A stretch of DNA of 64,000 bases from an uncultured Thermoplasmatales archaeon. Lineage in GTDB: Archaea; Thermoplasmatota; E2; DHVEG-1. The position numbers were made by a program, and so were the translations under genes. The notes beneath the pieces are model-generated. The model was not told where the DNA came from and made no database searches. It worked only from the letters and a program-made list of their open reading frames with translations. Below, one piece after another: positions 13,528 through 29,341 of this stretch (its first letter is position 1; each line of letters starts with the position of its first letter). Location of the stretch: positions 5,949-69,948 of the forward strand of contig CAZWYI010000006.1 of assembly GCA_964638155.1 (NCBI GenBank), given 5' to 3'.

Positions 13528-16500
13528 TTAGAAAAATTTCCTAACAATTACAGTATCTTCTGCTGGATTACCTGCATAGTCATAAGCAACTGTTTTTATT
13601 GTATGTTTACCAAATGTTTTTTCTTCCCAGTTAAAAACTAAATCACCACTTGTAATATTTGCCTTTAATTTATTGTCAACAAAGATTTTTACATAGTTTA
13701 TTCCTGATATATTATCAAAAGCATCAATTTCTATTTCTATTTCTCCTAATATCAAAGGAATTGGAAATGAAAATAGTTCCTTGTTTCTTAAATAAAATTT
13801 GTTTTCAGGTTTTAAAATTTGAACATTAGGATTAGAGTTATCCTCTCCATAAAAATAATCAGGTTTTATTTCTCTATCATTATTTCCATCTCCATCATCA
13901 TCAAAATAAATTATAGGATCGACTGCCTCACCATCAATATTCATTTTACCTATTGAATTTTCAAATATTGATATGTTATTGTAATAAAGATATGTTCTAT
14001 TACCATCAGATAACTGTTTAGTTGTTGAAAAATTAAAATCTCCATCGCCTGTTCCTTTCATTATAAATTTATATTTACCATTCCCATAAGGAATAGATAT
14101 TTCTTCGATTGTGTGATTCCATTTTGAAGAATTTGTTTCATTTGTTACAAATAGCGGATCAAAAGAATAAGAAACATTTTCAATTTCAAGATCTACCCCA
14201 TTTGTGTTATTTCTACCAACATGGTTACCATATTCATCATATAGGTGTAACTCAACTGGGCATCCTGTGATTTTTGCTTTAAATTTATCTTCAACAAATT
14301 TTTCTTTGTGAACTATGATTTCATCTTGTTTGAATTCTATTATCCTAAAGGCAGTATCAAGTGTGGAATCTGTTATAACATACAAAGGTTTATCATCTTC
14401 GTGTATGGGGAAATTTGTATAACCCGACCAATAATATGTTCCATCCATATCTCGATTGTATACACGATTTTTGTGTGTATGCCCACTAAGAACAATATCT
14501 ACATCATACTTATCGCAAGCATCTAGAAATCTTTCTTTTTCAGATGTAATGCATCCTGCATCCCAAATTCCATCTTCAGTATATCCTCCCCAGTGTTTCC
14601 AGTCTTCATTTTTTCTATAATATATAACTGGGTGATGCATAAATATAATTTTTTTATAATCACTTGTATCTTTATTGTTGTCACTACCATCTAAGTCATC
14701 TAATTCTGATTCTAATAGGTCTACTTGTTCGGGATCAAGACCTGTCCCTACAGGCGGCCACTTTGTTCCAGTGGTAAGTTTTTTATCATATCCTGAATCT
14801 ATAGATATAATACACGTTTTTGTTGTCTCGTCTTTCCAAGATTTATACCACGTTTGATGATCAATATATTCAATGTAATTATCAAGTACATCTGTCCAAG
14901 GTATTGAACCTTTTAAAGGAGAATATATTCGGTGATCATGGTTGCCAGGGCAATGATATATAGGTATCGTAAAATCAGAATTATGAATCCAATTAATATA
15001 CCAATTAGATTTTATTCCGTTAATTAAACTCCTGTATTCTAAATAATTATTTGCACCAATATCTCCTGATCCCCCACAATCAACAACATCTCCTGAGTTA
15101 ATGACAAATGAAGGCGGAATTGCAAAGTTTTTTATTTTCTTTAAAGTTTTATCTAAATTGCTAACACTGTTTTCTTTATCTAGATAAATTGGCCATTCTT
15201 CATGTATAATATGAGTATCAGTGATATGCACAAAATAAAAATTAGCATAAATTCCAGCATATGAACATCTAGATTCTAGTCCATTTTTATCTTTTATTTC
15301 TGCATGGATTTCTTTTTCCCCACCAGAATAAAAAGTCCATTTCAATATTTTATCATCAGCATTCCAACTATCAAAACTAGTATCCCAGTCAAACCATTCA
15401 GTCCAAATAAAACCATCATCGACCGTTCCATTTTGATCCTCATCACTTAGGAATCTTACTTTATCTATATTGTCTGTATAATCATAAATATGGATATCAA
15501 ACTCTAGCCCCATATCAATATTATCTATTTCTTTTCCATCTTTTTCAAGCCTTAAAAAACATTGAGGCATATCTGATAGTTCAAAATATAGATGATCTGA
15601 AAATAAACTCCAGCCATTAGTGTTATGAGAGCGCATATTCCATCTATATTTTTCTCCATATTCCAATATATCGCTGGGTAACTCATTAAAGGATGTTCCG
15701 TATATCTTTCCATCTGTATAATCTTCTTCACTATCATAAACTAAATTTGCTGGACCATAAGGATATTTACTAATATATAATCCATAATAATCAGCATCTG
15801 GCAGATTTTCCCATTGGAATGTAGGTGTATTTTCATATATAATTTCTCCTGGTTCAGAATTATATCCTGGGGAAATAAGTGTTGGTGGATTAGGTGGTTG
15901 ATTACCGCCCATTTTATATTTATAAAAAATATCATAGTCGTTTCCACTTTCATCGTAATCAGTATCATCCTGCCAGGCAACATGTACTATTTCACTACTG
16001 TCCACAAACAAAGAAGGATCCCAACAATATGTGCTTTCTGTGCTTACCAGTTCAGGGGAACTCCAGCTACCCTCAGCCGACTTATGTTTATAAAAAATAT
16101 TAGGGCCACTGCCGCTATCATCATAATCCATGTAATCAGTCCAAACAACATGTACCATGTCACTGCTATCTAAAAACAATGAGGGACAATAACTTGAGCT
16201 TGCGCTTTCCGTGCTTACTACTTGAGTAGTAGTCCAGATGTCATCAGCCGACTTGTATTTGTAAAATATATCATAATCACTACCACTTTCTCCATAAGAT
16301 GCTCCATCTTGCCAGGCAACATGAATCGTGCCGTTGCTTTCTACCGTCGATGAAGGATATTTACTATTACTGGTACTTTCTGTACTTACTACCTCTGTTG
16401 AACTCCAGCTTTCACCCGCTGGCTTGTATTTGTAAAAAATATCATAGTCGCTCTCACTTTCTACATAAGGTGTTTCATCCTGCCAAATAACGTGAATTGT

Positions 16501-17253
16501 GCTACTGCTGTCCACTATCAATGAAGGTTGTGAACTACTTCTTGTACTTTCTGTGCTTACAACTTCTGTTGCACTCCAACCACCGCCAGCTGGCTTGTAT
16601 TTGTAAAAAATGTCAGTATCACTACTGCTTCCACTATAATTAGTAACATCCTGCCAGGCAACATGAATCTTTCCAGCACTGTCCACGGCCAAAGAAGGAC
16701 AATAACTATATCCATTACTTTCTGTACTTACTACCTCTGTTGTACTCCAGCTTCCACCTGCAGACTTATACTTATAATAGATATCAAAGTCATTCCCACT
16801 ATCGCTATAACTAGTCCAATCATCCCATACTACATGAATCGTTCCAGAATTGTCCACAGTCAATGAAGGAGAAGAATAACTATCACTTGTGCTTTCTGTG
16901 CTTACCACTTCAGTTGTACTCCAGCTACCACCTGCAGGTTTGTATTTGTAAAAAATATCAATATCGCTACCGCTATTCCCATATGCCGTTTCATCCCGCC
17001 AGGCAATGTAAACTGTTCCACTGCTATCAACAACCAACGAACTATACTTGCTATCACTGCTGCTTTCTGCGCTTACTAATTCAGTAATATTCCAACCATC
17101 ATTATTTTTTTCTGTGGATAAGGAAACTGGTTTAGCATTTGTGAAGTTCTCTTCAAAGTCTTCATATTTTCTTAAACTTGGCACGAGACTTGCTACAATA
17201 AACAAGACTATAATAAAAAAAGCCAAATATCTGCTTGGTTTTACCTTTTTCAT
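13528..17253 (-). CDS. secreted multidomain protein: signal/TM anchor, 8 tandem ~50-aa BNR/Asp-box-like propeller repeats, FN3-like domain, calcineurin-like metallophosphoesterase, C-terminal Ig/CARDB-like domain
   Basis: N-terminal hydrophobic stretch (LAFFIIVLFIVASLVP). Repeats of the form DxDIFYKYK.AGGSWS.TEVVSTES….PSL.VD..G.IHV.WQD. Metallophosphoesterase motifs HITDTHI, GDVVDCG, GNHDH, FMHHP, GHTH. Confidence 0.8.
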   Translation of the reverse strand: MKKVKPSRYLAFFIIVLFIVASLVPSLRKYEDFEENFTNAKPVSLSTEKNNDGWNITELVSAESSSDSKYSSLVVDSSGTVYIAWRDETAYGNSGSDIDIFYKYKPAGGSWSTTEVVSTESTSDSYSSPSLTVDNSGTIHVVWDDWTSYSDSGNDFDIYYKYKSAGGSWSTTEVVSTESNGYSYCPSLAVDSAGKIHVAWQDVTNYSGSSSDTDIFYKYKPAGGGWSATEVVSTESTRSSSQPSLIVDSSSTIHVIWQDETPYVESESDYDIFYKYKPAGESWSSTEVVSTESTSNSKYPSSTVESNGTIHVAWQDGASYGESGSDYDIFYKYKSADDIWTTTQVVSTESASSSYCPSLFLDSSDMVHVVWTDYMDYDDSGSGPNIFYKHKSAEGSWSSPELVSTESTYCWDPSLFVDSSEIVHVAWQDDTDYDESGNDYDIFYKYKMGGNQPPNPPTLISPGYNSEPGEIIYENTPTFQWENLPDADYYGLYISKYPYGPANLVYDSEEDYTDGKIYGTSFNELPSDILEYGEKYRWNMRSHNTNGWSLFSDHLYFELSDMPQCFLRLEKDGKEIDNIDMGLEFDIHIYDYTDNIDKVRFLSDEDQNGTVDDGFIWTEWFDWDTSFDSWNADDKILKWTFYSGGEKEIHAEIKDKNGLESRCSYAGIYANFYFVHITDTHIIHEEWPIYLDKENSVSNLDKTLKKIKNFAIPPSFVINSGDVVDCGGSGDIGANNYLEYRSLINGIKSNWYINWIHNSDFTIPIYHCPGNHDHRIYSPLKGSIPWTDVLDNYIEYIDHQTWYKSWKDETTKTCIISIDSGYDKKLTTGTKWPPVGTGLDPEQVDLLESELDDLDGSDNNKDTSDYKKIIFMHHPVIYYRKNEDWKHWGGYTEDGIWDAGCITSEKERFLDACDKYDVDIVLSGHTHKNRVYNRDMDGTYYWSGYTNFPIHEDDKPLYVITDSTLDTAFRIIEFKQDEIIVHKEKFVEDKFKAKITGCPVELHLYDEYGNHVGRNNTNGVDLEIENVSYSFDPLFVTNETNSSKWNHTIEEISIPYGNGKYKFIMKGTGDGDFNFSTTKQLSDGNRTYLYYNNISIFENSIGKMNIDGEAVDPIIYFDDDGDGNNDREIKPDYFYGEDNSNPNVQILKPENKFYLRNKELFSFPIPLILGEIEIEIDAFDNISGINYVKIFVDNKLKANITSGDLVFNWEEKTFGKHTIKTVAYDYAGNPAEDTVIVRKFF
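15870..17060. repeat. intragenic tandem repeats (~150 nt unit, ~8 copies) encoding the propeller blades of the 1241-aa protein
   Basis: Recurring nucleotide strings such as gcttgtatttgtaaaaaatatca…ctaccact near 16255, 16425, 16595 and 16940. Confidence 0.6.
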
Positions 17254-20014: not shown

Positions 20015-20036
20015 GGTTCAAATCCCTTCCCCTGCA
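20015..20036 (+). repeat. 22-nt direct repeat GGTTCAAATCCCTTCCCCTGCA (tRNA T-arm/acceptor-3'-like), upstream copy
   Basis: Identical 22-mer at 29320..29341. It resembles a tRNA T-loop plus 3' acceptor strand, but no 5' half is present. Confidence 0.7.
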
Positions 20037-20053
20037 TTTTTATATGCTTTTTA

Positions 20054-20112
20054 ACAGGAGAAAAATATGATTTTATTCAATTTTATTCCCTTGCACGATT
20101 TCACCGGTGAAA
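20054..20112 (+). repeat. repeat motifs ACAGGAGAAAAA (20054-20065) and palindrome TTTCACCGGTGAAA (20099-20112), upstream copies
   Basis: Both motifs recur at 29284-29295 and 29303-29316 respectively. Confidence 0.6.
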
Positions 20113-20309
20113 ATTAATAAAGAGTAGAAAGTATATTCTCATATCTTTAATATTTTTCTTAAAAAATTACGCAAAATCTTTATATAACAAATTAATAGAG
20201 TTTGGTGAGTCTGCAATATTTTTTTTATATATGTGGATTTAATATTTCGTGAGGAGTAAGGGGTAGGTAAAATCATTAATTTAAGGTTTGAGTGGAGGTA
20301 TTTTTTGTG

Positions 20310-23300
20310 AATAAAAGCGGTGTATGTATTCTTATAGTATTGATGCTAGTGTTTTCTTTTGTTGGTGTGACAAATGCAGATTTTTTATCAGAAAATGATA
20401 TAGATGTCAATGGTTCTGATTCTAATTTTATTAATAAAGATTTTAATAGCATAGATGGTGTCCCTGATGGTCTTTCTGATGATGAATGGTCAGGTATTTT
20501 GGAAAGCATTGAAAATTATGATTATCAGCTTGGTTATGATGATCTTTTAGATTGTTATCATGCTGAGAATAGTGTTCATGGTTTAGATGTAAGGTTTGGT
20601 TCAGATGGTGGTGTTAAGACTGTTTTTTCTGATGAAAATTCTTTTTCGTTGAAACCAGTTGGTTTTGGTTATAGTGGTTTTTTATCGGGTTTGAGTAATG
20701 ATCCAGATGTTGAGGTAGGTTTTAATAGAATAGATTATAGTTACTCTGAAGATTTTATTGGTTGGTATAAAAATTCTGTTGATGGTTTGGAGCATGGTTT
20801 TGATATTCTTGAGCCGATTGAACCTCGTTTGAACTCTGAGATCTGTATTGAGATTTCTTATGATTCTAGTTTTACTGCTGAAAAAGTTGGTGATGGTATT
20901 GTGTTTTCTGATGAAAGTGGTGTTTCTCAGTTAAAATATGATAAACTTAAGGTTGTTGATGCAAAAGGAAGTACTCTTCCGTCTTCAATGAGTTTAGAAG
21001 AAGAAACAAGATCTATTTGTTTATCCTTTGATGACAGTGATGCGGTGTATCCTGTGGTTGTTGATCCATTGGTTACCAGTTTTGTAAAGAAAATTACTGC
21101 ATCTGATGGTGCAGCAGAGGATCGTTTTGGTTATTCCGTTTCTATATCTGGTGATACTATTGTAGTTGGTGCATATTGGGATGATGTTGATGGTAATACT
21201 GATCAGGGTTCGGCGTATGTGTTCACTCGGAATAATCAGACTATGGATGATTGGGGACAGGTAAAAAAACTTACTGTATCAGATGGTGCAGCAGAGGATT
21301 ATTTTGGTGGTTCTGTTTCTATTAGTGGTGATACATTGGTTGTTGGCGCATATAAAGATGATGTTGATGGTAATACTGATCAGGGTTCGGCGTATGTGTT
21401 CACTCGTAATAATCAGACTATGGATGATTGGGGCCGGGTAACGAAATTGACGGCGTCTGATGGTGCATCATCTGATCAATTTGGTGGTTCTGTTTCTATT
21501 AGTGGTGATACATTGGTTGTTGGTGCATCTTTTGATGATGTTGATGGTAATACTGATCAGGGTTCGGCGTATGTTTTTAGTCGTAATAATGGTAGTATGG
21601 ATGGTTGGGGTCAGGTAACGAAATTGACGGCTTCTGATGGTGCAGCATATGATTATTTTGGTTATTCTGTTTCTATTAGTGGCGATACATTGGTTGTTGG
21701 TGCATCTTATGATGATGTTGATGGTATTGCGGATCAGGGTTCGGCGTATGTTTTTAGTCGTAATAATGGAGGTATGGATGGTTGGGGTCAGGTAACAAAA
21801 TTGACGGCGTCTGATGGCGCAGAAGATGATTATTTTGGTTGGAGTGTTTCTATCAGTGGTGATACATTGGTTGTTGGCGCATATGGTGATGATGATGTTG
21901 ATGGTAATAATTTTCAGGGTTCGGCGTATGTGTTTACTCGTAATAATCAGACTATGGATGATTGGGGTCAGGTAACAAAGTTGACTGCTTCTGATGGTGC
22001 AGAAGATGATTGGTTTGGTACTTCTGTTTCTATCAGTGGTGATACGATCGTGGTTGGTGCAGATAAAGGTGATGGTGGTAATAGAAATCAGGGTTCGGCG
22101 TATGTGTTTACTCGTAATAATCAGACTATGGATGACTGGGGTCAGGTAACGAAATTGACGGCTTCTGATGGTGCAACACATGATTATTTTGGTTATTCTG
22201 TTTCTATTAGTGGCGATACATTGGTTGTTGGTGCATTTGGTGACGAATCTTTCTCTGGTTCTGCATATACTTACGTTATGGAAGGTGATGCTTGGACACA
22301 GATTGCTAAACCAGTTGCTTCTGATGGCGAAGAAGATGATTATTTTGGTTATTCTGTTTCAATTAGTGGCGATACGATTGTGGTTGGTGCAAGGGATGAT
22401 GATGGCTGTAAGGGTTCTGCGTATGTGTATACTCGTAATAATCTAACCGCAGACGACTGGGGTCAGGTGGTGAAGCTTACTGCTTCTGATGGTGAAGCAG
22501 GTGATGAGTTTGGTTGTTCTCTTTCTATATCTGGTGATACGATTGTGGTTGGTGCACATTGGGATGATAATCCTGATAGATCTGGTTCTGCGTATGTATA
22601 TACGCGGAATAATGAAACTGCTGATGACTGGGGTGAGGTAACAAAACTTACTGCATCAGATGGTGAAGCAAGTGATTATTTTGGTTATTCTGTTTCAATT
22701 AGTGGCGATACGATTGTTGTCGGTGCATATGGTGATGATGATGGTGGTGATTATCAGGGTTCTGCGTATGTATTCGTTCGTAATAATCAGACTGCAGATG
22801 ACTGGGGGCAGGCAGCAAAACTGAATGCTTCTGATGGCGAAGAAGATGATTATTTTGGTCGTTCTGTTTCAATTAGTGGTGATACGATTGTGGTTGGATC
22901 AGATGGTGATGATGATAATGGTGGTGAGTCTGGTTCTGCGTATGTATATACGCGGAATAATGAAACCGCTGATGACTGGGGTGAGGTAACAAAACTTACT
23001 GCATCAGATGGTGCAGCAGATGATGAGTTTGGTCATTCTGTTTCTATATCTGGTGATACGATTGTGGTTGGTGCATATTATGATGATGATAATGGTCTTA
23101 GTTCTGGTTCTGCGTATGTGTTCACGCGGAATAATCAAACCGCAGATGACTGGGGTGAGGTAACAAAATTAACTGCATCTGATGGTGCGGAATTTGATAA
23201 TTTTGGTTGTAGTGTTTCAATATCTGGTGATACGATTGTTGTCGGCGCCAATTATGATGATGATAATGGTGATAATTCTGGTTCTGCATATGTTTTTACT

Positions 23301-26300
23301 CGTAATCAAGGGGGTGCTGATAGTTGGGGTCAGGTAAATAAGTTGACTGCGTCTGATGGAGAAGCACAGGATGTTTTTGGTTGGTCTGTTTCTATTAGTG
23401 GTGATACTATTGTTGTTGGAGCAAGAGATGGTGATGGTGAAGGAACTAATTCTGGTGCTGCGTATGTTTATTATGAATATTCAATTCCCCCCCCACTTGA
23501 CCCACCAACAAGTTTTAAGGCAAACTCAGTAAATTCCACAAAAATAGATTTATCCTGGACTAAAGCATCAACAGCTTCACATACACATATACAACGAAAC
23601 ACAGGTAGCTATCCAACCAGTATCACTGATGGAACCACAGTATACAATGGAACCGCTTCAACCTACTCAGATACTAGTTTAACAGAAGGAACAACATATT
23701 ATTACCGTGCTTGGAGTTATAATGCAACTGATAACGAATATAGCAGCAGCTATGTCTCAGCAACAAGCACAGCAAATAATATTCCAATGATATCAGGCGA
23801 ATCTCCAAGTAATGAAAGTACGAATATAGATCCTCTTACAATATCTTCAATATCAATAAATGACTCTGATAGCGATACCATGAACATCACCTGGTACAGC
23901 AACACCAGCGGATCATGGACTGTTTTTGGAACAAACAACAGTGTTTCAAATGGTACATATCATCAGACCAACAACAATTTCAGTTCATATAATGAAACAT
24001 ATTACTGGAATGTAACGGTAACTGATGGTAAAGATACTAACTCCAGTAACATTTTTTATTTTTCCACAAAAATAGGATCGCCCACGGTAACAACAAACAG
24101 TTCAACAGGGATAGAAGAAACCAATGTTACCCTACAAGGATATCTTTCATCAAATGGTGGAGAAGCATGTACGGTCCGATTTGAATATGGTACTACTAGT
24201 GATTATGGGACTAATACCAGTAATCAGACAAAAAACAGTGGACAAGAATATTCAGAGGAAATAACTGGGTTGACTGAAGGTCAACTTTATCATTATCGGG
24301 CATATGCAAACAATACCGCAGGGAGTAATACTGGTAGTGATATGACCCTGCTGACTAAACCAGAAGTGCCAACAAACCTACAAGCCCAAACAAACAGTAG
24401 CTCTCTGATTTATCTTACTTGGACAACGGCAGATGGGGCGAATAATACCTATATTGAACGAAATACAGCAGCAGACTGGGCACGAAGCACGGGTTCAGAA
24501 GTGTATAATGGTAGTTTATCCTCTTATGAAAACACAGGGCTTACTGATGGTACAACCTACTATTACCAGGCATGGTCATATACCAATTGGAGTGATCTGC
24601 ATCAATATTCAGATGATAATGATAGTGCATTTAATACAACAAAACATGTACCAACTCTGACGGGTGAATCACCCAGTAACCAAACAACAAATGTAAACCC
24701 ATTACCCACCTGTTCAATCACCGTTAATGACCTTGATGGTGATAATATGGATCTTACCTGGTATAGTAATTCATCAGGGCCATGGGTGGTATTTGGGTCT
24801 AACACCAGTGTTAGTAATGGTACATATTATCAGACGAATAGTAATTTCAGCAGTTATAATACCACTTATTATTGGAATGTAACCGTGAATGATAGCAATG
24901 ATACTAACAATAGTGATATTTTCTGGTTTACCATAAGAAAGCATTATCTGCCGGATCCACCAAATAGTTTTACTGCCACTGTTAACAGTTCAACTGAATT
25001 GTATCTTTCTTGGTCAAAAGGAACGAATACATCATTTACGAGAATACAGCGAAAAACCAGTGGTTATCCAAACAGCATAAGTGATGGAACAAATATCTAT
25101 AATGATACTGGTTCGTCATATTCTGATACTGGTCGTTCTGAAGGAACCACTTATTATTATCGTGCTTGGAGCTATAATGTCACAGATGGTTTATGGTCAA
25201 CCAATAACGCTAGTGCTGCAAATACAACCAACTCTATACCAGTTATAACGAATGAAGGACCAAGTAATGAGAGCACAAATATTGATCCCATACCGCAGAT
25301 GAACATCACCATAAATGATATTGATGGTGATAGTATGAATCTTACTTGGTATAGTAATTCTTCAGGGTCATGGGTTATCTTTGGAACAAATAATAGTGTG
25401 GGTAATGGTACGTATCATCAGACTAATAGTAATTTCAGTAGTTATAATACCACATATTACTGGAATATCACAGTAACAGATGAAAAAGATACAAACACAA
25501 GCTCTGTTTTCTGTTTTACAATTAGAAATCAGTATATTCCTGATCCTGCGGATACTTTTACCGCGACAACAATAAACAGTACAAAAATTAATCTAGAATG
25601 GGACAAAGGATCCAATGCAGATTATACAAGAATTCAACGAAAAACCAATGTTTATCCCACAGGTATAAGTGATGGCACCAATATCTACAACGACACCAGC
25701 ACCTCATATAACGACACTGGCCTTACACAAGGAACCACTTATCACTATCGAGCATGGAGCTATAATAATACTGATAACTCATGGTCAGAAACTAATATTT
25801 CAGTTTATAATACCACAAATTATCTACCAATCATAACTGCAGAATCACCAGATGATGAAAGTACAAATATTAACATTCTACCTACTCTTGCTATAACCGT
25901 AAATGATTTTGAAGAAGACACCATGAATGTTACATGGCGGTGGAACAATAGTGGTACATGGAATATTTTTGGAACAAACAATAGTATCGGCAACGGAACG
26001 TATTATCAAACTAATAGTAATTTCAGTAGTTATAATATCACATATTACTGGAATGTAACTGTGAGTGATAGTACGAATACGAACATTAGCTCTGTTTATC
26101 AGTTCACCATTAAAAACAATGATGTCATCCGGGTTGATCCAAATAAACCAGATGATTGGTATGATGATCTTCATGTGAGAAATATCACTGAAGCAATAAA
26201 CAATGTAACTGAAAATGGAACATTGTATGTTTGGGAAGGAACGTACAATGAAACACTGACCATTAATAAATCAATAAACATCGTTGGCAATGGAACCGGT

Positions 26301-29225
26301 AGTACGATTATTGATGGTGGGGAGAATGGTAGTGTTATCACGGTTAATGCAGATAATGTAAGTATCTCAGGGTTCACTATTCAAAATAGTTCTAATTCAA
26401 GTGGAAGTGCAGGGATACAGATCAATGGGAATCATACCACGGTTTCAAATACAACTATTTCAGATTCCTGGAATGGGATCATCTGCGGGAATCGTAGTTT
26501 TCCAACCACTAATAACACTTTTGAAAACAATACGTTTACCAATAACAGTGATGGTGCAGGAATCCTGGTAACGAATACATCAGATGGAACCAGTATTAGA
26601 AACAATACCTTCCAACATAATTATGATGGTGTTAAAGTAACATCAGATAACATTACAATTGATAATAACACTATCCAGAATTCAACTAATAACGGAATAA
26701 ACCTTGAAGATAGTAATGATTCTACAATCACCAATAATATCTGTAACCAAAACCAGTATGGTATTGTTCTCAATAATACCAATGTTATAACTATTCATAC
26801 AAACAATGTTTCAGATAATACAAAGGCTGGATTATTTTTTACAGATACATATAATACGACAACATATAATAATTATTTAGATAACATTAATCAGACATTG
26901 TTTTCTGGTTTAAATATCGATACTGTTTGGAATACAACAAAAACAAGTGGTACAAACATTATTGGTGGAAACTATCTTGGCGGTAATTACTGGAGTGACT
27001 ATAATGGGTACGATACCGATGGCGATGGACTTGGAAATCTAAACTATACTATTAACCAAACACATAATTTCTATGATATATTAGCATTAACAGTTGCAAA
27101 TATGGAGTCTGTACCAGGGGGTATAAACCCTGCAAATGGAAGTAGTAACCAGAATCCACATAGTTTAAACTGGACAATAGCAATTAGTGATTCAGATGGA
27201 GATCTATTTGACTGGACAATAGAATGTGCAGGTCAGAGTAATACTGGTTCAAACGAAGAAAATGGTACAAAAAATATAGTTCTAACATCACTGTCATATA
27301 ACACAACATACAAAGTATATGTTAATGTGTCAGATGGAACATGTTGGGTGAATGAAAGCTATAATTTTTCAACAAGAACTCAGTATCTGCCAACCCTGCC
27401 AACTAGTTTTACTGCAACAACAATAAACCCTGTAAATATCACTTTAACATGGTCTAAAGGAACAAATACGGATTACACCCGGATACAAAGGAAAACAACA
27501 GAGTATCCTGAAACCATTTCAGATGGAACAAATGTGGCAAACACTACAGGTACAACACATTCAGATACAGTATCTGAAGGAGATACCTACTACTACCGTG
27601 CATGGAGCTATAATATTACTGATAACGTATGGTCGACAAACAACGCTAGTGATTACAATATCACAACATATTACGCAGATATTCCTAGTAAAACTCCTGT
27701 AAATGATTCTACGGGTGTTTCATTATTGCCTGTTTTGCAGGTTTCTGCAAACGACTCTGATGGTGATACTATGAATATAACATGGTATAGCAATAGCAGT
27801 GGCACTTGGCAGGTTTTTGGAACAAACAATAGCGTTTCAAATGGAACATATAGTATGAGTAACAGTAACTTTAGCCAGTATTCAACAAAATATTTCTGGA
27901 AAGTAACAATTTTTGATGGAACTTATTGGGTAAATAATACTTATTGTTTTACAACTATTGCAAACAATCTACCTATTCAATCAAATCATACTATTGTAAA
28001 CAGCAGTATAAGTTACAATCTATCTTTGAATACTACCATTTCGGCACTATATCCATCTTATCTATCAATTGATTTTTCAGATGAAGAAAATCATTCAATG
28101 GCAATCAACATCATTACAAATGCATCTGGCACTTGGCAGGTTGTTAATTCAAGTTCAGGGCTGTCTAATGGCACGTATAAAGCATATAATTTCTCATGGA
28201 TCAATCAATCTAGCACAACATATTATTTGTGGGTCAATCTTTCTGATGGACATGATTGGAATAACAAATCATACACAATAACGACACTTGGCGAATATGT
28301 ACCATTTAAACCAATTAGTTTTACTGCAACTGCGGCAAGTTCAAGTAAAATCAATTTAGCTTGGACAAAAGGAAACAAAGCTAATAAAACCTATATTAGA
28401 TACAAGGAGGGATCAACTGCACCAGTTAATCGTTCTGATGGAACACTACTTTATAATGGAACAGATACATCTACTAGTGCAACATCCCTTTCATCAAGTA
28501 CTACATATAGTTTTAAAGCCTGGAGTTACAATGACTCTGGAAACTGTTTTAGCATATTCAACTCGACTTGCAGTGCTACATCAAATTCAGCAAGTACTGG
28601 TGGTACTACTTCACCTGGTACTGGAACTACAGCTCCATCAGATGATCCTGAGGATTCAGATGGTGATGGTATTCCTGATGAGGAGGATGAATTCCCTGAT
28701 GATCCCAGTGAATCAAAGGATTCAGATGGTGATGGAATAGGTGATAACTCTGATAACAGCCCAGAGGTTCCTAATCCTGATCAGACTGATAATGATAATG
28801 ATGGTGTAGGTGATGCAAGTGATACGGATGATGATAACGATGGTGTTTCTGATGATATGGAAGAAGAAATAGGTAGTGATCCTAAAACAGATGGTGATGT
28901 TGAAGATATTGATCCTTTTATTTCAGATAGTTATGTTGCTGATACCAATGGTGATGGCAGATATGATAAGTTCTATAATTCTAGTTCTGGTGTTAAAACA
29001 GATGTTATGTATGTGGAATCAGAAGGTTATTATATAGATAGTGATGGCGATGGATCCTGGGATTATGTTTATAATCCAACAGATGGAAGTCTTACTCCTG
29101 CTGAAGAAGAAACAACAGATGGGGGTAACTTATGGTTTATAATTGGTGGTGCTCTTGTCGGTGTTTTAGTATTGCTATTTATTATTATTTTTGTCTTTAA
29201 AAGACGTAAAAAAGACAAAAAATAA
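20310..29225 (+). CDS. giant (~2970 aa) surface protein: signal peptide, ~14 FG-GAP/integrin-alpha-like propeller repeats, ~7 FN3 + accessory-module repeats, right-handed parallel beta-helix (NosD/pectin-lyase-like), thrombospondin type-3 Ca-binding repeats, C-terminal TM anchor with a basic tail
   Basis: GTG start at 20310, 8 nt after a GGAGGT RBS; signal NKSGVCILIVLMLVFSFVGVTNA. FG-GAP units SAYVFTRNN…DWGQVTKLTASDG…FGYSVSISGDTLVVGA. FN3-like units …YRAWSYN…. Beta-helix repeats N.S.GI.L…N.I.NN. TSP3 repeats DSDGDGIPDEEDEFPDDP. C-terminus LWFIIGGALVGVLVLLFIIIFVFKRRKKDKK. The ORF track's start is 20292. Confidence 0.85.
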   Translation, partial: NKSGVCILIVLMLVFSFVGVTNADFLSENDIDVNGSDSNFINKDFNSIDGVPDGLSDDEWSGILESIENYDYQLGYDDLLDCYHAENSVHGLDVRFGSDGGVKTVFSDENSFSLKPVGFGYSGFLSGLSNDPDVEVGFNRIDYSYSEDFIGWYKNSVDGLEHGFDILEPIEPRLNSEICIEISYDSSFTAEKVGDGIVFSDESGVSQLKYDKLKVVDAKGSTLPSSMSLEEETRSICLSFDDSDAVYPVVVDPLVTSFVKKITASDGAAEDRFGYSVSISGDTIVVGAYWDDVDGNTDQGSAYVFTRNNQTMDDWGQVKKLTVSDGAAEDYFGGSVSISGDTLVVGAYKDDVDGNTDQGSAYVFTRNNQTMDDWGRVTKLTASDGASSDQFGGSVSISGDTLVVGASFDDVDGNTDQGSAYVFSRNNGSMDGWGQVTKLTASDGAAYDYFGYSVSISGDTLVVGASYDDVDGIADQGSAYVFSRNNGGMDGWGQVTKLTASDGAEDDYFGWSVSISGDTLVVGAYGDDDVDGNNFQGSAYVFTRNNQTMDDWGQVTKLTASDGAEDDWFGTSVSISGDTIVVGADKGDGGNRNQGSAYVFTRNNQTMDDWGQVTKLTASDGATHDYFGYSVSISGDTLVVGAFGDESFSGSAYTYVMEGDAWTQIAKPVASDGEEDDYFGYSVSISGDTIVVGARDDDGCKGSAYVYTRNNLTADDWGQVVKLTASDGEAGDEFGCSLSISGDTIVVGAHWDDNPDRSGSAYVYTRNNETADDWGEVTKLTASDGEASDYFGYSVSISGDTIVVGAYGDDDGGDYQGSAYVFVRNNQTADDWGQAAKLNASDGEEDDYFGRSVSISGDTIVVGSDGDDDNGGESGSAYVYTRNNETADDWGEVTKLTASDGAADDEFGHSVSISGDTIVVGAYYDDDNGLSSGSAYVFTRNNQTADDWGEVTKLTASDGAEFDNFGCSVSISGDTIVVGANYDDDNGDNSGSAYVFTRNQGGADSWGQVNKLTASDGEAQDVFGWSVSISGDTIVVGARDGDGEGTNSGAAYVYYEYSIPPPLDPPTSFKANSVNSTKIDLSWTKASTASHTHIQRNTGSYPTSITDGTTVYNGTASTYSDTSLTEGTTYYYRAWSYNATDNEYSSSYVSATSTANNIPMISGESPSNESTNIDPLTISSISINDSDSDTMNITWYSNTSGSWTVFGTNNSVSNGTYHQTNNNFSSYNETYYWNVTVTDGKDTNSSNIFYFSTKIGSPTVTTNSSTGIEETNVTLQGYLSSNGGEACTVRFEYGTTSDYGTNTSNQTKNSGQEYSEEITGLTEGQLYHYRAYANNTAGSNTGSDMTLLTKPEVPTNLQAQTNSSSLIYLTWTTADGANNTYIERNTAADWARSTGSEVYNGSLSSYENTGLTDGTTYYYQAWSYTNWSDLHQYSDDNDSAFNTTKHVPTLTGESPSNQTTNVNPLPTCSITVNDLDGDNMDLTWYSNSSGPWVVFGSNTSVSNGTYYQTNSNFSSYNTTYYWNVTVNDSNDTNNSDIFWFTIRKHYLPDPPNSFTATVNSSTELYLSWSKGTNTSFTRIQRKTSGYPNSISDGTNIYNDTGSSYSDTGRSEGTTYYYRAWSYNVTDGLWSTNNASAANTTNSIPVITNEGPSNESTNIDPIPQMNITINDIDGDSMNLTWYSNSSGSWVIFGTNNSVGNGTYHQTNSNFSSYNTTYYWNITVTDEKDTNTSSVFCFTIRNQYIPDPADTFTATTINSTKINLEWDKGSNADYTRIQRKTNVYPTGISDGTNIYNDTSTSYNDTGLTQGTTYHYRAWSYNNTDNSWSETNISVYNTTNYLPIITAESPDDESTNINILPTLAITVNDFEEDTMNVTWRWNNSGTWNIFGTNNSIGNGTYYQTNSNFSSYNITYYWNVTVSDSTNTNISSVYQFTIKNNDVIRVDPNKPDDWYDDLHVRNITEAINNVTENGTLYVWEGTYNETLTINKSINIVGNGTGSTIIDGGENGSVITVNADNVSISGFTIQNSSNSSGSAGIQINGNHTTVSNTTISDSWNGIICGNRSFPTTNNTFENNTFTNNSDGAGILVTNTSDGTSIRNNTFQHNYDGVKVTSDNITIDNNTIQNSTNNGINLEDSNDSTITNNICNQNQYGIVLNNTNVITIHTNNVSDNTKAGLFFTDTYNTTTYNNYLDNINQTLFSGLNIDTVWNTTKTSGTNIIGGNYLGGNYWSDYNGYDTDGDGLGNLNYTINQTHNFYDILALTVANMESVPGGINPANGSSNQNPHSLNWTIAISDSDGDLFDWTIECAGQSNTGSNEENGTKNIVLTSLSYNTTYKVYVNVSDGTCWVNESYNFSTRTQYLPTLPTSFTATTINPVNITLTWSKGTNTDYTRIQRKTTEYPETISDGTNVANTTGTTHSDTVSEGDTYYYRAWSYNITDNVWSTNNASDYNITTYYADIPSKTPVNDSTGVSLLPVLQVSANDSDGDTMNITWYSNSSGTWQVFGTNNSVSNGTYSMSNSNFSQYSTKYFWKVTIFDGTYWVNNTYCFTTIANNLPIQSNHTIVNSSISYNLSLNTTISALYPSYLSIDFSDEENHSMAINIITNASGTWQVVNSSSGLSNGTYKAYNFSWINQSSTTYYLWVNLSDGHDWNNKSYTITTLGEYVPFKPISFTATAASSSKINLAWTKGNKANKTYIRYKEGSTAPVNRSDGTLLYNGTDTSTSATSLSSSTTYSFKAWSYNDSGNCFSIFNSTCSATSNSASTGGTTSPGTGTTAPSDDPEDSDGDGIPDEEDEFPDDPSESKDSDGDGIGDNSDNSPEVPNPDQTDNDNDGVGDASDTDDDNDGVSDDMEEEIGSDPKTDGDVEDIDPFISDSYVADTNGDGRYDKFYNSSSGVKTDVMYVESEGYYIDSDGDGSWDYVYNPTDGSLTPAEEETTDGGNLWFIIGGALVGVLVLLFIIIFVFKRRKKDKK
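21090..23470 (+). repeat. intragenic tandem nucleotide repeats (~170-nt unit) encoding the FG-GAP blades
   Basis: Near-identical stretches such as ggttcggcgtatgtgtt[c/t]actcg[g/t]aataatcagactatggatga[t/c]tgggg at ~21211, 21391, 21921 and 22091. Confidence 0.7.
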
Positions 29226-29231
29226 AATACA

Positions 29232-29258
29232 TTTTTTTTTCTTTTTTTTATATTTTTA
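29232..29258 (+). terminator. oligo-T terminator tract after the giant gene (archaeal-style T-runs)
   Basis: TTTTTTTTTC TTTTTTTTT ATATTTTT immediately after the TAA at 29223-29225. Confidence 0.45.
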
Positions 29259-29283
29259 GATTTAAATGATTAAAAATGTTTTT

Positions 29284-29341
29284 ACAGGAGAAAAAAGTAT
29301 TTTTTCACCGGTGAAACTAGGTTCAAATCCCTTCCCCTGCA
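29284..29341 (+). repeat. downstream copies of ACAGGAGAAAAA, TTTCACCGGTGAAA and the 22-nt tRNA-3'-like repeat
   Basis: 29284-29295, 29303-29316 and 29320-29341. The order is X-Y-Z here versus Z-X-Y upstream of the giant gene. Confidence 0.65.

What the first reader, a model, noticed from the sequence alone, without database searches (positions are those of the whole stretch)
20310..29225. 2972-aa surface protein with exceptional N-x-S/T sequon density and a propeller-FN3-beta-helix-TSP3 architecture
The layout is a signal peptide, ~14 FG-GAP blades (two integrin-alpha-like propellers), at least seven repeats of an FN3-plus-accessory module (…YRAWSYN… / …I.INDSDGD.MN.TWYSNSSG.W..FGTNNSV.NGTY.QTNSNFSSYN.TYYWNVTV…), a NosD/pectin-lyase-like parallel beta-helix, Ca-binding thrombospondin type-3 repeats, and a C-terminal TM helix with a KRRKKDKK tail. 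Between ~23.5 and 28.6 kb almost every 8-10 residues carry an N-[^P]-[ST] sequon (NGT, NNS, NTS, NVT, NIT, NSS). That implies a heavily N-glycosylated cell-envelope protein and supports an archaeal host. It is a candidate S-layer or adhesin component, possibly mediating cell-cell contact.
Basis: seen in the sequence. Interest (0 to 1): 0.65.

Follow-up and report, generated by a model that had tools for sequence, protein, structure and literature searches.

The report
Giant sugar-coated archaeal surface protein
This is an intact 2,972-residue membrane-anchored surface protein of an uncultured sediment archaeon (Thermoplasmatota) whose long stalk carries about ten times more N-glycosylation motifs than its neighbours; it is a good example of a known kind of protein, but the gene is unexpectedly bracketed by two copies of a tRNA-Leu fragment, the sort of repeat left by site-specific insertion.

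Summary
One intact ORF (GTG 20307 to stop 29225, 2,972 aa) encodes a signal peptide, an N-terminal beta-sandwich domain, 14 FG-GAP_2 blades (7+7), 14 FN3-type sandwiches in two alternating kinds, a NosD-type beta-helix, TSP3 repeats, a conserved DxDGDG juxtamembrane module, one TM helix and a KRRKKDKK tail.

The protein has 144 N-x-S/T sequons (4.85 per 100 aa, against 0.44 in 48 other window ORFs). Of these, 130 lie in the stalk (aa 1060-2758): 7.65 per 100 aa, twice the composition expectation (z=10), median spacing 10 aa. The propeller head and the membrane-proximal part are sequon-poor.

The host is archaeal. HypD is 73% identical to its closest named relatives, from 'Thermoplasmatales archaeon SG8-52'. 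The stalk's second domain type occurs almost only in Thermoplasmatota genomes.

The best reading is a type-I anchored, glycan-shielded stalk carrying a bare binding head, that is an adhesin- or receptor-like protein. An S-layer lattice subunit is less likely. Glycosylation itself is inferred, not shown.

Relatives are equally sequon-rich, so this is a new member of a known kind.

Two extras: the second stalk domain belongs to a large family (3,226 cluster representatives) with no Pfam model, and the gene lies between exact 22-nt tRNA-Leu 3'-end repeats with conserved arm motifs, which looks like an integrase-less cassette.

The parts
20015..20036 (+). Upstream copy of the exact 22-nt repeat M1, GGTTCAAATCCCTTCCCCTGCA. 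This is the T-loop plus 3' acceptor strand of tRNA-Leu. With the preceding AGG it forms a full T-arm. No 5' half of a tRNA is present.
   Evidence: only 2 copies in 64 kb, 0.01 expected by chance; the same 22-mer is the 3' end of tRNA-Leu genes; no tRNA in the window.
20050..20112 (+). Upstream arm motifs: M2 TTTAACAGGAGAAAAA (20050-20065) and the palindrome M3 TTCACCGGTGAAA (20100-20112).
   Evidence: M3 occurs only here and downstream of the gene. Exact M2 also occurs only at these two places.
20179..20299 (+). Candidate expression signals: two TTTATATA boxes (20179-20186, 20224-20231) and the Shine-Dalgarno-like GGAGGT (20294-20299).
   Evidence: Read directly from the sequence. Function is inferred.
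20307..29225 (+). Coding sequence of the 2,972-aa surface protein, from the GTG start to the TAA stop.
   Evidence: Identical to P0001.
20307..20378 (+). Sec-type signal peptide (aa 1-24, MNKSGVCILIVLMLVFSFVGVTNA|D).
   Evidence: Sequence reading. No predictor was run.
20379..21080 (+). N-terminal head domain (aa 25-258). It is mostly beta-strand and ends in the conserved motif AVYPVVVDP.
   Evidence: No Pfam or NCBIfam hit. Shared with P0005, P0008, P0111, P0006 and P0100. AF2 pLDDT 77. Weak Foldseek matches (E 1.6e-3, TM about 0.35) to chains of GH92/GH38 mannosidases; which part of those enzymes is matched was not determined.
21072..23483 (+). 14 FG-GAP_2 blades (aa 256-1059). They are probably two seven-bladed propellers, with atypical short blades 7 and 8 in the middle.
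   Evidence: The 7+7 split is inferred from periodicity, not modelled.
23484..26108 (+). Stalk part 1 (aa 1060-1934): FN3a-AccA-FN3a'-FN3b-AccB-FN3c-AccC-FN3d-AccD, with 64 sequons.
26109..27089 (+). Right-handed parallel beta-helix of NosD type (aa 1935-2261), with 29 sequons.
27090..28580 (+). Stalk part 2 (aa 2262-2758): AccE-FN3e-AccF-AccG-FN3f, with 37 sequons.
28581..28916 (+). Ser/Thr-rich linker followed by acidic thrombospondin type-3 repeats, which are Ca-binding DxDxDG loops.
   Evidence: TSP_3 30.8 bits, TSP3_bac 18.3 bits; partial MtsC match through the TSP3 repeats.
28917..29120 (+). Conserved juxtamembrane module of about 65 aa with two DxDGDG-type motifs (aa 2871-2938).
   Evidence: the same module lies 30-60 aa from the C-terminus in 12 further proteins, always just before the anchor.
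29127..29222 (+). Transmembrane helix (aa 2941-2964) and cytoplasmic tail KRRKKDKK. There is no PGF motif.
   Evidence: GG_III-CTERM scores 20.9 bits, below its cut-off of 22; some relatives have PGF-CTERM instead.
29231..29256 (+). T-rich run after the stop codon, a candidate archaeal terminator.
   Evidence: Sequence reading. Function is inferred.
29280..29341 (+). Downstream composite M2 (29280-29295), M3 (29304-29316), M1 (29320-29341). This is the same 60-nt element that is found in many sediment metagenome contigs.

Best explanation
The gene encodes a type-I membrane-anchored cell-surface glycoprotein of a Thermoplasmatota archaeon related to MBG-D/SG8-52.

Proposed mechanism:
1. Sec export and cleavage after TNA24 (inferred).
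2. The C-terminal helix stays in the membrane with KRRKKDKK inside (positive-inside rule, inferred).
3. Next to the membrane sit a Ca-binding juxtamembrane module, TSP3 repeats and a Ser/Thr linker.
4. A rod of about 1,700 aa follows: 14 FN3-type sandwiches plus one beta-helix. From typical domain sizes it would be roughly 50-60 nm long (inference).
5. The rod carries 130 sequons. The archaeal oligosaccharyltransferase AglB would decorate them outside the cell, giving a hydrated, protease-resistant glycan sheath (inferred).
6. At the tip, two FG-GAP_2 propellers and an N-terminal beta-rich domain are nearly free of sequons. They are the likely ligand-binding head.

Functionally it is an adhesin- or receptor-like spacer protein, or a glycocalyx component. 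It is probably not the lattice-forming S-layer subunit. A glycan shield makes sense in a lineage that secretes gingipain- and clostripain-type peptidases.

The gene is probably an accessory gene that arrived by site-specific recombination, because tRNA-Leu-derived att-like repeats flank it.
For: - Intact ORF and architecture.
- Sequon excess confined to the stalk: 7.65 per 100 aa, z=10. Head: 13 sequons in 1,059 aa. Last 182 extracellular aa: 1 sequon.
- Sequon positions are kept between repeats that share only 28-31% identity.
- They recur at the same columns in 30-50% of 881 homologous domains. Family-wide, S/T follows Asn at +2 in 55% of cases against a 26% background. No such coupling is seen at other offsets or after Asp, Gln, Gly or Lys.
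- The enrichment is class-specific. Secreted hydrolases of the same lineage (C25, C11, GH18, LamG3/M73, BNR-phosphoesterase) have 0.1-1.2 sequons per 100 aa, at or below expectation. Stalk-type proteins (P0005, a PKD protein) have 4.9-6.7.
- Archaeal assignment.
- Archaea use plain N-X-S/T, and AglB acts on the outer face of the membrane (PMC2952790).
- Paralogues and orthologues P0005 and P0008 keep the head, the stalk modules and the juxtamembrane module plus anchor, but swap internal modules (PKD, LamG). This is typical of modular adhesins.
- Peptidase_C25 and Peptidase_C11 genes lie beside the P0005 homologue.
Against: - No experiment shows expression, localisation or glycosylation.
- No AglB gene lies in the window.
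- Part of the Asn richness in the beta-helix is expected from the fold (Asn ladders). The invariant NGT of the accessory domain could be a structural turn. Some sequons are therefore probably buried and unused.
- The signal peptide and topology were judged by eye.
- The two-propeller head was not modelled.
- No ligand can be named.
- The N-terminal domain model is of only moderate confidence (pLDDT 77), and its fold matches are weak (E 1.6e-3 at best, none at or below 1e-3).
Confidence: 0.65

Rival explanations
1. It is the S-layer protein, or a lattice subunit, of this archaeon. The glycosylated FN3 and beta-helix part would form the canopy and the C-terminal helix the stalk.
For: It has a C-terminal membrane anchor and many sequons, as archaeal S-layer glycoproteins do (PMC2952790; PMC2948927 abstract). 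Relatives with the same juxtamembrane module end in PGF-CTERM-like signals, which are typical of archaeosortase-processed S-layer proteins.
Against: No S-layer family matched in Pfam or NCBIfam, and there is no PGF-CTERM in this protein. Module content differs freely between close relatives, which is unusual for a lattice former. At about 3,000 aa with two propellers at the distal end, it looks like a stalked binding protein. Many paralogous proteins carry the same domains (3,226 cluster representatives).
Confidence: 0.1
2. The sequon density is a by-product of composition and fold (AT-rich genome, Asn/Ser/Thr-rich beta-sandwiches, Asn ladders, NG turns). The protein is little glycosylated, or not at all.
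For: GC is about 33-40%. The stalk is 14% Asn and 29% Ser+Thr, so 66 sequons are expected by chance. Right-handed beta-helices are intrinsically Asn-rich. N-P-S/T is not clearly depleted family-wide: 210 observed against 237 expected.
Against: Observed sequons are twice the shuffle expectation (z=10). The same residues at other spacings are not enriched: N..[ST] 47, N[ST] 66, reverse motif 79, against 130 sequons. The +2 coupling holds over 8,967 Asn residues in 881 domains. Secreted enzymes of the same lineage lack the enrichment.
Confidence: 0.1
3. It is primarily a cell-surface enzyme. The beta-helix would be a polysaccharide lyase or hydrolase, or the head a glycan-processing or binding unit, tethered far from the membrane to attack polymeric substrates.
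For: The beta-helix matches Pect-lyase_RHGA_epim weakly (E 1e-6). The N-terminal domain weakly resembles parts of GH92/GH38 mannosidase structures. The lineage is known from neighbouring genes to secrete hydrolases.
Against: The best beta-helix matches are the non-catalytic NosD and generic Beta_helix families. No catalytic family reaches its threshold. The beta-helix lies in the middle of the stalk and is itself the most sequon-dense segment (8.9 per 100 aa), which suits a structural spacer.
Confidence: 0.1

Closest known systems
Archaeal N-glycosylated surface proteins: S-layer glycoproteins of Haloferax, Methanothermus and Sulfolobus, and the Thermoplasma acidophilum membrane glycoprotein
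   Same: Exported, anchored by a C-terminal segment, and carrying N-X-S/T sequons for AglB. Thermoplasma, of the same phylum, has a heavily N-glycosylated membrane protein (PMC2952790).
   Different: Sequon density is much higher. H. volcanii SLG has 7 sequons and M. fervidus SLG has 20, half of them occupied. S. acidocaldarius SlaA has 31 predicted sites. Here there are 144, of which 130 lie in 1,699 aa. There is no S-layer domain family and no PGF-CTERM. A propeller head is present. Lattice formation is unknown.
Integrin alpha subunits (layout only)
   Same: An N-terminal beta-propeller head built of FG-GAP-type repeats, a leg of Ig-like sandwiches, one TM helix and a short basic cytoplasmic tail.
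   Different: The repeats are Pfam FG-GAP_2, not FG-GAP. There are 14 blades, not 7. No Integrin_alpha2 domain and no GFFKR motif are found, and no beta subunit is known. This is a resemblance of architecture, not membership.
Giant repetitive bacterial adhesins (SiiE, RTX adhesins such as LapA and MpIBP)
   Same: A long rod of tandem Ig-like, Ca-stabilised domains holds a ligand-binding region far from the cell (SiiE: PMC6272769, listed; the rest is general knowledge).
   Different: Those are type-1-secreted and retained in the outer membrane, and are not N-glycosylated. This protein uses Sec, a C-terminal TM helix and, presumably, a dense N-glycan coat.
Multi-domain FG-GAP_2 proteins of bacteria (P0002-P0120, e.g. 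Ca. Magnetomorum, Ignavibacteriales, Ca. Poriferisodalis)
   Same: Blocks of 14 FG-GAP_2 blades at 40-57% identity, often combined with FN3, cadherin or PKD domains.
   Different: Median sequon density is 0.67 per 100 aa against 4.85 here. They have different stalk domains and, with few exceptions, lack the accessory domain and the archaeal juxtamembrane module.
HIV-1 Env gp120 glycan shield (analogy only)
   Same: The accessory-domain profile's only PDB sequence 'hits' are the sequon-rich part of gp120, E 0.004. This reflects a similar NxS/T-dominated composition.
   Different: There is no homology. The match is compositional, and the fold is an FN3-type sandwich.
Integrative elements that target the 3' end of tRNA genes with a tyrosine integrase
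   Same: An exact direct repeat equal to a tRNA-Leu 3' end lies on both sides of the gene. A Phage_integrase gene sits about 580 nt from the same 22-mer in four metagenome loci.
   Different: Here there is no integrase between the repeats and no intact tRNA at either end, and the cargo is a single gene. In other contigs the repeats delimit arrays of units of 0.35-2.8 kb, mostly holding one gene each. This resembles cassette arrays more than proviruses or plasmids.

Membership tests
Archaeal S-layer glycoprotein | Match to a recognised S-layer protein family | tested here: not met
   Pfam and NCBIfam scans of the whole protein and its segments gave only FG-GAP_2, fn3 (weak), Beta_helix/NosD and TSP_3.
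Archaeal S-layer glycoprotein | PGF-CTERM or other archaeosortase sorting signal | tested here: not met
   The C-terminus is ...DGGNLWFIIGGALVGVLVLLFIIIFVFKRRKKDKK, with no PGF. NCBIfam gave only GG_III-CTERM at 20.9 bits, below its cut-off of 22. Relatives P0394, P0398 and P0402 do have TPGF/TPGY motifs.
Archaeal S-layer glycoprotein | Forms a 2-D lattice and is a dominant envelope protein | not testable with these tools
   Needs cryo-ET or proteomics.
AglB-dependent N-glycoprotein | N-X(not P)-S/T sequons in an extracytoplasmic segment, above chance | tested here: met
   130 sequons in aa 1060-2758 against 66 +/- 6.4 expected. Signal peptide and C-terminal TM place this segment outside the cell.
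AglB-dependent N-glycoprotein | Oligosaccharyltransferase AglB encoded by the organism | not tested
   No ORF of the window matched STT3/AglB among those scanned. The rest of the genome is not available here.
AglB-dependent N-glycoprotein | Glycan occupancy of the sequons | not testable with these tools
   Needs glycoproteomics.
Integrin alpha | Seven-bladed propeller of FG-GAP (PF01839) repeats | tested here: inconclusive
   14 FG-GAP_2 (PF14312) stretches with a 7+7 break in periodicity. No PF01839 hit, no structure model and no PDB sequence relative.
Integrin alpha | Integrin_alpha2 thigh/calf domains and a GFFKR membrane-proximal motif | tested here: not met
   No such Pfam hit. The tail is FVFKRRKKDKK.
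Fibronectin type III domain | FN3 beta-sandwich fold | tested here: met
   Pfam fn3 is below threshold: 15.5-19.5 bits, cut-off 25. The AF2 model (pLDDT 96) aligns over about 205-220 columns to tandem FN3 crystal structures, E 1e-8 to 1e-7. Both the canonical and the 'accessory' domain are FN3-type.
NosD / right-handed parallel beta-helix | Match above threshold to PF13229 or PF05048 | tested here: met
   119.9 and 118.2 bits against cut-offs of 25.9 and 23.6. TIGR03804 repeat 38.9 bits against 19.45. PDB 7o0y NosD E 4.9e-7. The full NosD family model TIGR04247 is not reached (112.7 bits against 300), so this is the fold, not NosD itself.
Thrombospondin type-3 repeat | PF02412 above the gathering score | tested here: met
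   30.8 bits against 25, two stretches.
Element integrated at a tRNA gene (att duplication) | Direct repeats identical to the 3' part of a tRNA gene at both ends | tested here: met
   Exact 22-mer at 20015-20036 and 29320-29341, with 0.01 copies expected by chance. It is identical to the 3' end of tRNA-Leu genes.
Element integrated at a tRNA gene (att duplication) | Integrase gene inside the element and an intact tRNA at one end | tested here: not met
   The giant ORF is the only long ORF between the repeats. There is no tRNA in the window. Integrases are seen only in other loci.
Element integrated at a tRNA gene (att duplication) | An empty site in a related genome | not tested
The nearest relatives' contigs could not be reached at this position.

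The most novel reading that the evidence does not exclude
The giant glycoprotein gene is the cargo of an integrase-less cassette.

A 9.3-kb unit is bounded by a tRNA-Leu-derived 22-nt core. Conserved arm motifs (ACAGGAG box and a variable palindrome) lie on the element side of both junctions. This is what integration of a circle with an attP of the form M2-M3-M1-M2-M3 would leave.

The same 60-nt composite delimits arrays of small units, mostly one gene each, in many sediment metagenome contigs. Those units often encode secreted NosD/beta-helix proteins.

On this reading, sediment Thermoplasmatota would have a tRNA-att-based gene-cassette system, functionally like integrons but with a different site, that shuffles accessory genes including cell-surface proteins.
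Probability: 0.3. Interest if true: 0.7.

Novelty: new member of a known kind. Interest (0 to 1): 0.42.

Why it matters
MBG-D-type Thermoplasmatota are abundant, uncultured sediment archaea, and nothing is known about their envelope. This protein and its relatives suggest that their surface carries very long stalks with dense predicted glycosylation and bare propeller heads. They provide concrete targets for metaproteomics, glycoproteomics and cryo-ET.

The accessory FN3-type domain is a large family (3,226 cluster representatives at 50% identity). No model in the Pfam copy used here matched it, so it deserves one.

If the flanking tRNA-Leu-derived repeats prove to be recombination sites, they would reveal how these archaea exchange surface and other accessory genes.

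Tried and rejected
- Genome-contig scan with aa 1087-2977 of the protein found no relative. The source genome is evidently not a species representative.
- Exact look-up of P0001 for its contig: not on record.
- tRNA and Rfam scans of the window: nothing.
- Profile of the accessory domain against PDB sequences: only compositional hits to HIV gp120, E 0.004. Rejected as homology.
- FG-GAP region against PDB sequences: no hit.
- Idea that the M2-M3-M1 composite folds as a mini-tRNA, with M2 (ACAGGAG) pairing with the acceptor 3' strand. Two of seven pairs mismatch. The M2 variants (ACAGAAG, ACAGCAG, ACAAGAG) are not compensated, because M1 is fixed by the search. There is no support.
- Idea that the composite is a classical integron attC. 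The R''/R' consensus and a centred hairpin are not evident by inspection. Not pursued with a model.
- Idea that the cassettes carry only surface proteins: rejected. 14 of 24 ORFs inside inter-repeat intervals have signal-like N-termini, and the rest look cytoplasmic.
- The repeat motifs are absent from the loci of the homologues P0005 and P0008. The flanking repeats are therefore not a constant companion of this gene family.
- The antisense ORF 21468-22181 (237 aa) inside the FG-GAP repeats was treated as a by-product of the repetitive, skewed sequence.
Full report
**1. Is it there?**

The window holds one uninterrupted ORF at 20292..29225 on the + strand. The first GTG is followed 15 nt later by a second GTG at 20307. 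That second GTG lies 7 nt after GGAGGT (20294-20299). Translation from 20307 gives 2,972 aa. This is identical over its full length to a database protein, P0001, from an 81-kb NCBI contig that carries no name. The internal repeats are only 60-86% identical at the DNA level, so repeat collapse or expansion in assembly is unlikely.

**2. Architecture**

Evidence from domain searches and models:
- Pfam finds 14 FG-GAP_2 stretches, E 6e-288.
- When the protein is scanned in pieces, Pfam finds Beta_helix (E 1e-34), NosD (E 4e-34), TSP_3 (30.8 bits, cut-off 25) and only sub-threshold fn3 (15.5-19.5 bits, cut-off 25).
- NCBIfam agrees for the beta-helix and gives nothing for the N-terminal domain or the FN3/accessory module.
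- By alignment of the repeats I count seven canonical FN3-like domains (motif YYYRAWSYN) and seven 'accessory' domains (motif ND.DGD.MN.TWYSNSSG.W..FGTNNSV.NGTY...YYWNVTV.D). Their order is FN3-Acc-FN3-FN3-Acc-FN3-Acc-FN3-Acc / beta-helix / Acc-FN3-Acc-Acc-FN3.
- An AlphaFold2 model of one FN3+Acc pair is very confident (pLDDT 96, pTM 0.81). It aligns over both halves to crystal structures of tandem FN3 domains (CNTN4, PTP-delta, titin A77-A78, LAR, neogenin), E about 1e-8. The 'accessory module' is therefore a second, divergent FN3-type sandwich.
- The blade spacing is regular at 174-180 nt, except for two short blades in the middle (156 and 165 nt). This fits two seven-bladed propellers, but I could not model them.
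- The N-terminal 234 residues form a mostly beta domain (pLDDT 77). It has only weak matches to GH92/GH38 mannosidase structures (E 1.6e-3, TM about 0.35).
- The same N-terminal domain precedes the FG-GAP blades in P0005, P0008/P0121, P0111, P0006 and P0100.

After the last FN3 come, in order:
- a Ser/Thr-rich linker;
- TSP3 repeats;
- a module of about 65 aa with two DxDGDG-type motifs, which sits immediately before the anchor in this protein and in 12 further proteins;
- one hydrophobic helix;
- the tail KRRKKDKK.

Some relatives with the same module end in TPGF/TPGY plus helix plus a basic tail, that is PGF-CTERM-like signals. This protein does not.

**3. Sequons**

*Whole protein.* It has 144 N-x(not P)-S/T motifs, or 4.85 per 100 aa. 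The 48 other ORFs of the window together have 0.44 per 100 aa.

*By region:*

| Region | Sequons | Per 100 aa | z vs shuffle |
|---|---|---|---|
| Signal peptide + N-terminal domain | 2 | 0.8 | - |
| FG-GAP blades | 11 | 1.4 | 1.5 |
| First FN3/Acc block | 64 | 7.3 | 6.8 |
| Beta-helix | 29 | 8.9 | 5.2 |
| Second FN3/Acc block | 37 | 7.4 | 6.1 |
| Last 182 extracellular residues | 1 | - | - |

*Stalk as a whole (aa 1060-2758).*
- There are 130 sequons against 66.0 +/- 6.4 in shuffles (z=10).
- Control motifs built from the same residues are much rarer: reverse motif 79, N[ST] 66, N..[ST] 47.
- 55% of all Asn residues are in sequons.
- Median spacing is 10 residues, mean 13 and maximum 40.

*Conservation.*
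- Sequon positions are conserved between repeat copies that share only about 30% identity.
- In 881 homologous accessory domains from 150 other proteins, the same columns hold a sequon in 30-50% of copies.
- Over 8,967 Asn residues, S/T occupies +2 in 55.4%, against a background of 25.6% and 17-30% at other offsets. Asp, Gln, Gly and Lys show no such coupling. This is what selection for functional sequons would produce.

*Caveats.*
- Right-handed beta-helices are Asn-rich by fold.
- The invariant NGT may be a turn.
- N-P-S/T is not clearly depleted in the family (210 observed against 237 expected).

**4. How exceptional is it?**

- Against cytoplasmic proteins and bacterial FG-GAP_2 relatives (median 0.67 per 100 aa) it stands far out.
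- Against its own class it does not. The 148 representative proteins that share the accessory domain have a median of 3.9 per 100 aa (quartiles 2.9-4.9, maximum 7.6). The homologues P0005 and P0008 have 4.9 and 3.6.
- The enrichment is specific to stalk-type surface proteins. Secreted hydrolases of the same lineage have 0.1-1.2 per 100 aa, at or below expectation. These are C25 gingipain-like, C11 clostripain-like, GH18 and LamG3/M73 proteins, and the window's own 1,241-aa BNR/metallophosphoesterase protein. A 630-aa PKD protein next to P0005 has 6.7.
- For comparison with published archaeal glycoproteins: the H. volcanii S-layer glycoprotein has 7 sequons, and that of M. fervidus has 20, half of them occupied (PMC2952790). 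S. acidocaldarius SlaA has 31 predicted sites (PMC2948927 abstract).

**5. Whose gene is it?**

- The window's other genes include HypD, Hdr/Mvh-type hydrogenase and heterodisulfide-reductase-like proteins, PFOR, succinyl-CoA ligase and an M32 carboxypeptidase.
- HypD has unnamed relatives at 88-89% identity. The closest named ones, at 73%, are from 'Thermoplasmatales archaeon SG8-52-1/-4'.
- A scan of one genome per species with the accessory domain found it at 44-68% identity in 19 loci. Eighteen are labelled Thermoplasmatales, Thermoplasmata, Thermoplasmatota or 'Methanobacteriota' MAGs, including SG8-52-3, and one is a Bathyarchaeota-labelled bin. Bacterial matches are only weak, at 27-46%.
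- The P0005 homologue lies next to Peptidase_C25 and Peptidase_C11 genes.
- The archaeal assignment is therefore well supported.

**6. What it most likely does**

*Shown:*
- an intact gene;
- the domain order;
- a signal-peptide-like N-terminus and a single C-terminal helix with a basic tail;
- a sequon excess confined to the stalk and conserved in the family.

*Inferred:*
- Sec export.
- Type-I anchoring.
- AglB-dependent glycosylation of many stalk sequons outside the cell. Archaea use the plain N-X-S/T motif and AglB acts on the outer face of the membrane.
- A rod of roughly 50-60 nm (14 sandwiches of about 3.5 nm plus a beta-helix of about 6 nm, from typical domain sizes).
- A distal, sequon-poor binding head made of two propellers and the N-terminal domain.

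A glycan sheath would stiffen and hydrate the rod. It would also protect the rod from proteases, including the lineage's own secreted peptidases. Close relatives keep the head and anchor but swap internal modules such as PKD, LamG and the beta-helix, which is the behaviour of modular adhesins.

I put 0.65 on 'glycan-shielded stalked adhesin- or receptor-like surface protein'. I put about 0.1 each on three rivals: an S-layer lattice subunit, a mostly unglycosylated protein whose sequons are compositional, and a tethered carbohydrate-active enzyme.

**7. Comparison with known families**

- It works like a stalked adhesin. In layout it resembles integrin alpha subunits: propeller head, Ig-like leg, one TM helix and a short basic tail.
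- It is not a member of the integrin family. The repeats are FG-GAP_2, there are 14 of them, and there is no Integrin_alpha2 domain and no GFFKR motif.
- It is not demonstrably an S-layer protein (no family match, no PGF-CTERM).
- Its domains are members of the FN3 fold, the right-handed beta-helix/NosD-type fold and the TSP3 repeat family.
- The accessory domain family is large. An exhaustive HMMER search found 3,226 cluster representatives with E at or below 1e-3, 1,680 at or below 1e-10, and up to 25 copies per protein.
- Yet neither this protein nor five of six other family members scanned gave any Pfam match over those domains. One 551-aa protein with six copies gave none at all.

**8. 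An unexpected feature of the flanks**

*In the window.*
- The gene is bracketed by three short motifs. Two of them (M1, M3) occur nowhere else in the 64 kb; M2 has only 2-mismatch matches elsewhere.
- M1 is an exact 22-mer, GGTTCAAATCCCTTCCCCTGCA (20015-20036 and 29320-29341; 0.01 copies expected by chance).
- M2 is TTTWACAGGAGAAAAA (20050-20065 and 29280-29295).
- M3 is the palindrome TTCACCGGTGAAA (20100-20112 and 29304-29316).
- The order is M1-M2-M3 upstream and M2-M3-M1 downstream.

*In metagenomes.*
- M1 is the T-loop plus 3' acceptor strand of tRNA-Leu. ARAGORN places the 22-mer at the 3' end of tRNA-Leu genes in many of them. The window itself has no tRNA.
- Of 136 copies with enough flank, 43 lie in standard tRNA-Leu genes. 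Another 24 lie in contexts that look like variant or intron-bearing tRNA-Leu. A further 42 are preceded by the same conserved M2-M3 stretch as downstream of the giant gene; aligned without gaps over 63-64 nt, these show 82% mean column identity. The remaining 27 lie in other contexts.
- The palindrome varies while staying palindromic: ACCGGT, ACATGT, AATATT, CACCGGTG.
- Thirteen contigs hold 2-5 copies. The 19 intervals between copies are 0.35-2.8 kb (median 1.2 kb) and mostly hold one ORF (11 intervals) or two (5 intervals). Of the 24 ORFs, 18 are on the strand of M1 and 14 have signal-like N-termini.
- The largest family among ORFs on these contigs consists of secreted proteins. The four members scanned included three with NosD/Beta_helix domains.
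- A Phage_integrase-family gene lies 580-588 nt beyond M1, in the same orientation, in four contigs.

*Interpretation.*
- The arrangement in the window is what integration of a circle with an attP of the form M2-M3-M1-M2-M3 into an M1-like site would leave.
- However, there is no integrase between the repeats and no intact tRNA at either end. The homologues P0005 and P0008 lack these motifs.
- I therefore report this as a partly followed-up lead. The gene is probably accessory and recombination-delivered (my estimate is about 0.5). It is possibly part of a cassette system built on a tRNA-Leu-derived site (about 0.3).

**9. Verdict**

It overstates uniqueness, and the S-layer and integrin readings are loose. 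The protein is a new member of a known kind, a heavily sequon-rich archaeal surface protein. Two by-products are worth recording: a large FN3-type domain family with no Pfam model, and tRNA-Leu-derived repeats that delimit this gene and many small gene units in sediment archaeal contigs.

Noticed in passing
window 20015-20112 and 29280-29341; loci L031-L151: An exact 22-nt tRNA-Leu 3'-end sequence plus two conserved motifs (ACAGGAG box and a palindrome) flank the giant gene, and M1 and M3 occur nowhere else in the window. The same 60-nt composite recurs in many sediment metagenome contigs, where it delimits arrays of units of 0.35-2.8 kb, mostly one gene each. A tyrosine integrase lies about 580 nt from the 22-mer in four contigs.
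   Followed up: partly
window 23763-24065, 24630-24932, 25218-25520, 25806-26108, 27090-27374, 27654-27956, 27954-28289: The 'accessory' FN3-type domain belongs to a family with 3,226 cluster representatives (E at or below 1e-3) and up to 25 copies per protein. It is almost confined to Thermoplasmatota among named genomes. No Pfam-A or NCBIfam model matched it in the copies used here.
   Followed up: yes
window 28917-29120; also P0005, P0008, P0263, P0353, P0374, P0376, P0394, P0398, P0402: A module of about 65 aa with two DxDGDG-type motifs always sits 30-60 residues from the C-terminus, just before the anchor. Some relatives follow it with PGF-CTERM-like signals (TPGF/TPGY), whereas this protein has a plain TM helix.
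   Followed up: partly
accessory-domain profile (alignment A1) against PDB sequences: The only sequence 'hits' in the PDB are the sequon-rich region of HIV-1 gp120 (E 0.004). This is a compositional match that shows how glycan-shield-like the stalk sequence is. It is not homology.
   Followed up: yes
L001 (contig of homologue P0005) and window 13528-17253: Secreted hydrolases of this lineage (C25, C11, GH18, LamG3/M73, BNR/metallophosphoesterase) have 0.1-1.2 sequons per 100 aa. Stalk-type surface proteins have 4.9-6.7. Sequon enrichment is therefore specific to a class of protein, not a general property of secreted proteins.
   Followed up: partly
window 50981-55711: A 1,576-aa ORF combines HdrA2-like regions (five stretches, 1,070 bits) with a GltD-like NAD(P)-binding oxidoreductase part. 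It lies in a long cluster of Hdr/Mvh/Tfr-like, GlcD-like and lipoate-ligase genes (32.8-55.7 kb).
   Followed up: no
window 13528-17253 (-): A 1,241-aa exported protein combines BNR/sialidase-like repeats, a calcineurin-like phosphoesterase domain and a C-terminal Big_7 domain. It is not sequon-enriched (15 observed, 13 expected).
   Followed up: no
window 21468-22181 (-): A 237-aa antisense ORF lies inside the FG-GAP repeats. It is probably a by-product of the repetitive sequence with strong GC skew (0.41 at 20-22 kb).
   Followed up: no
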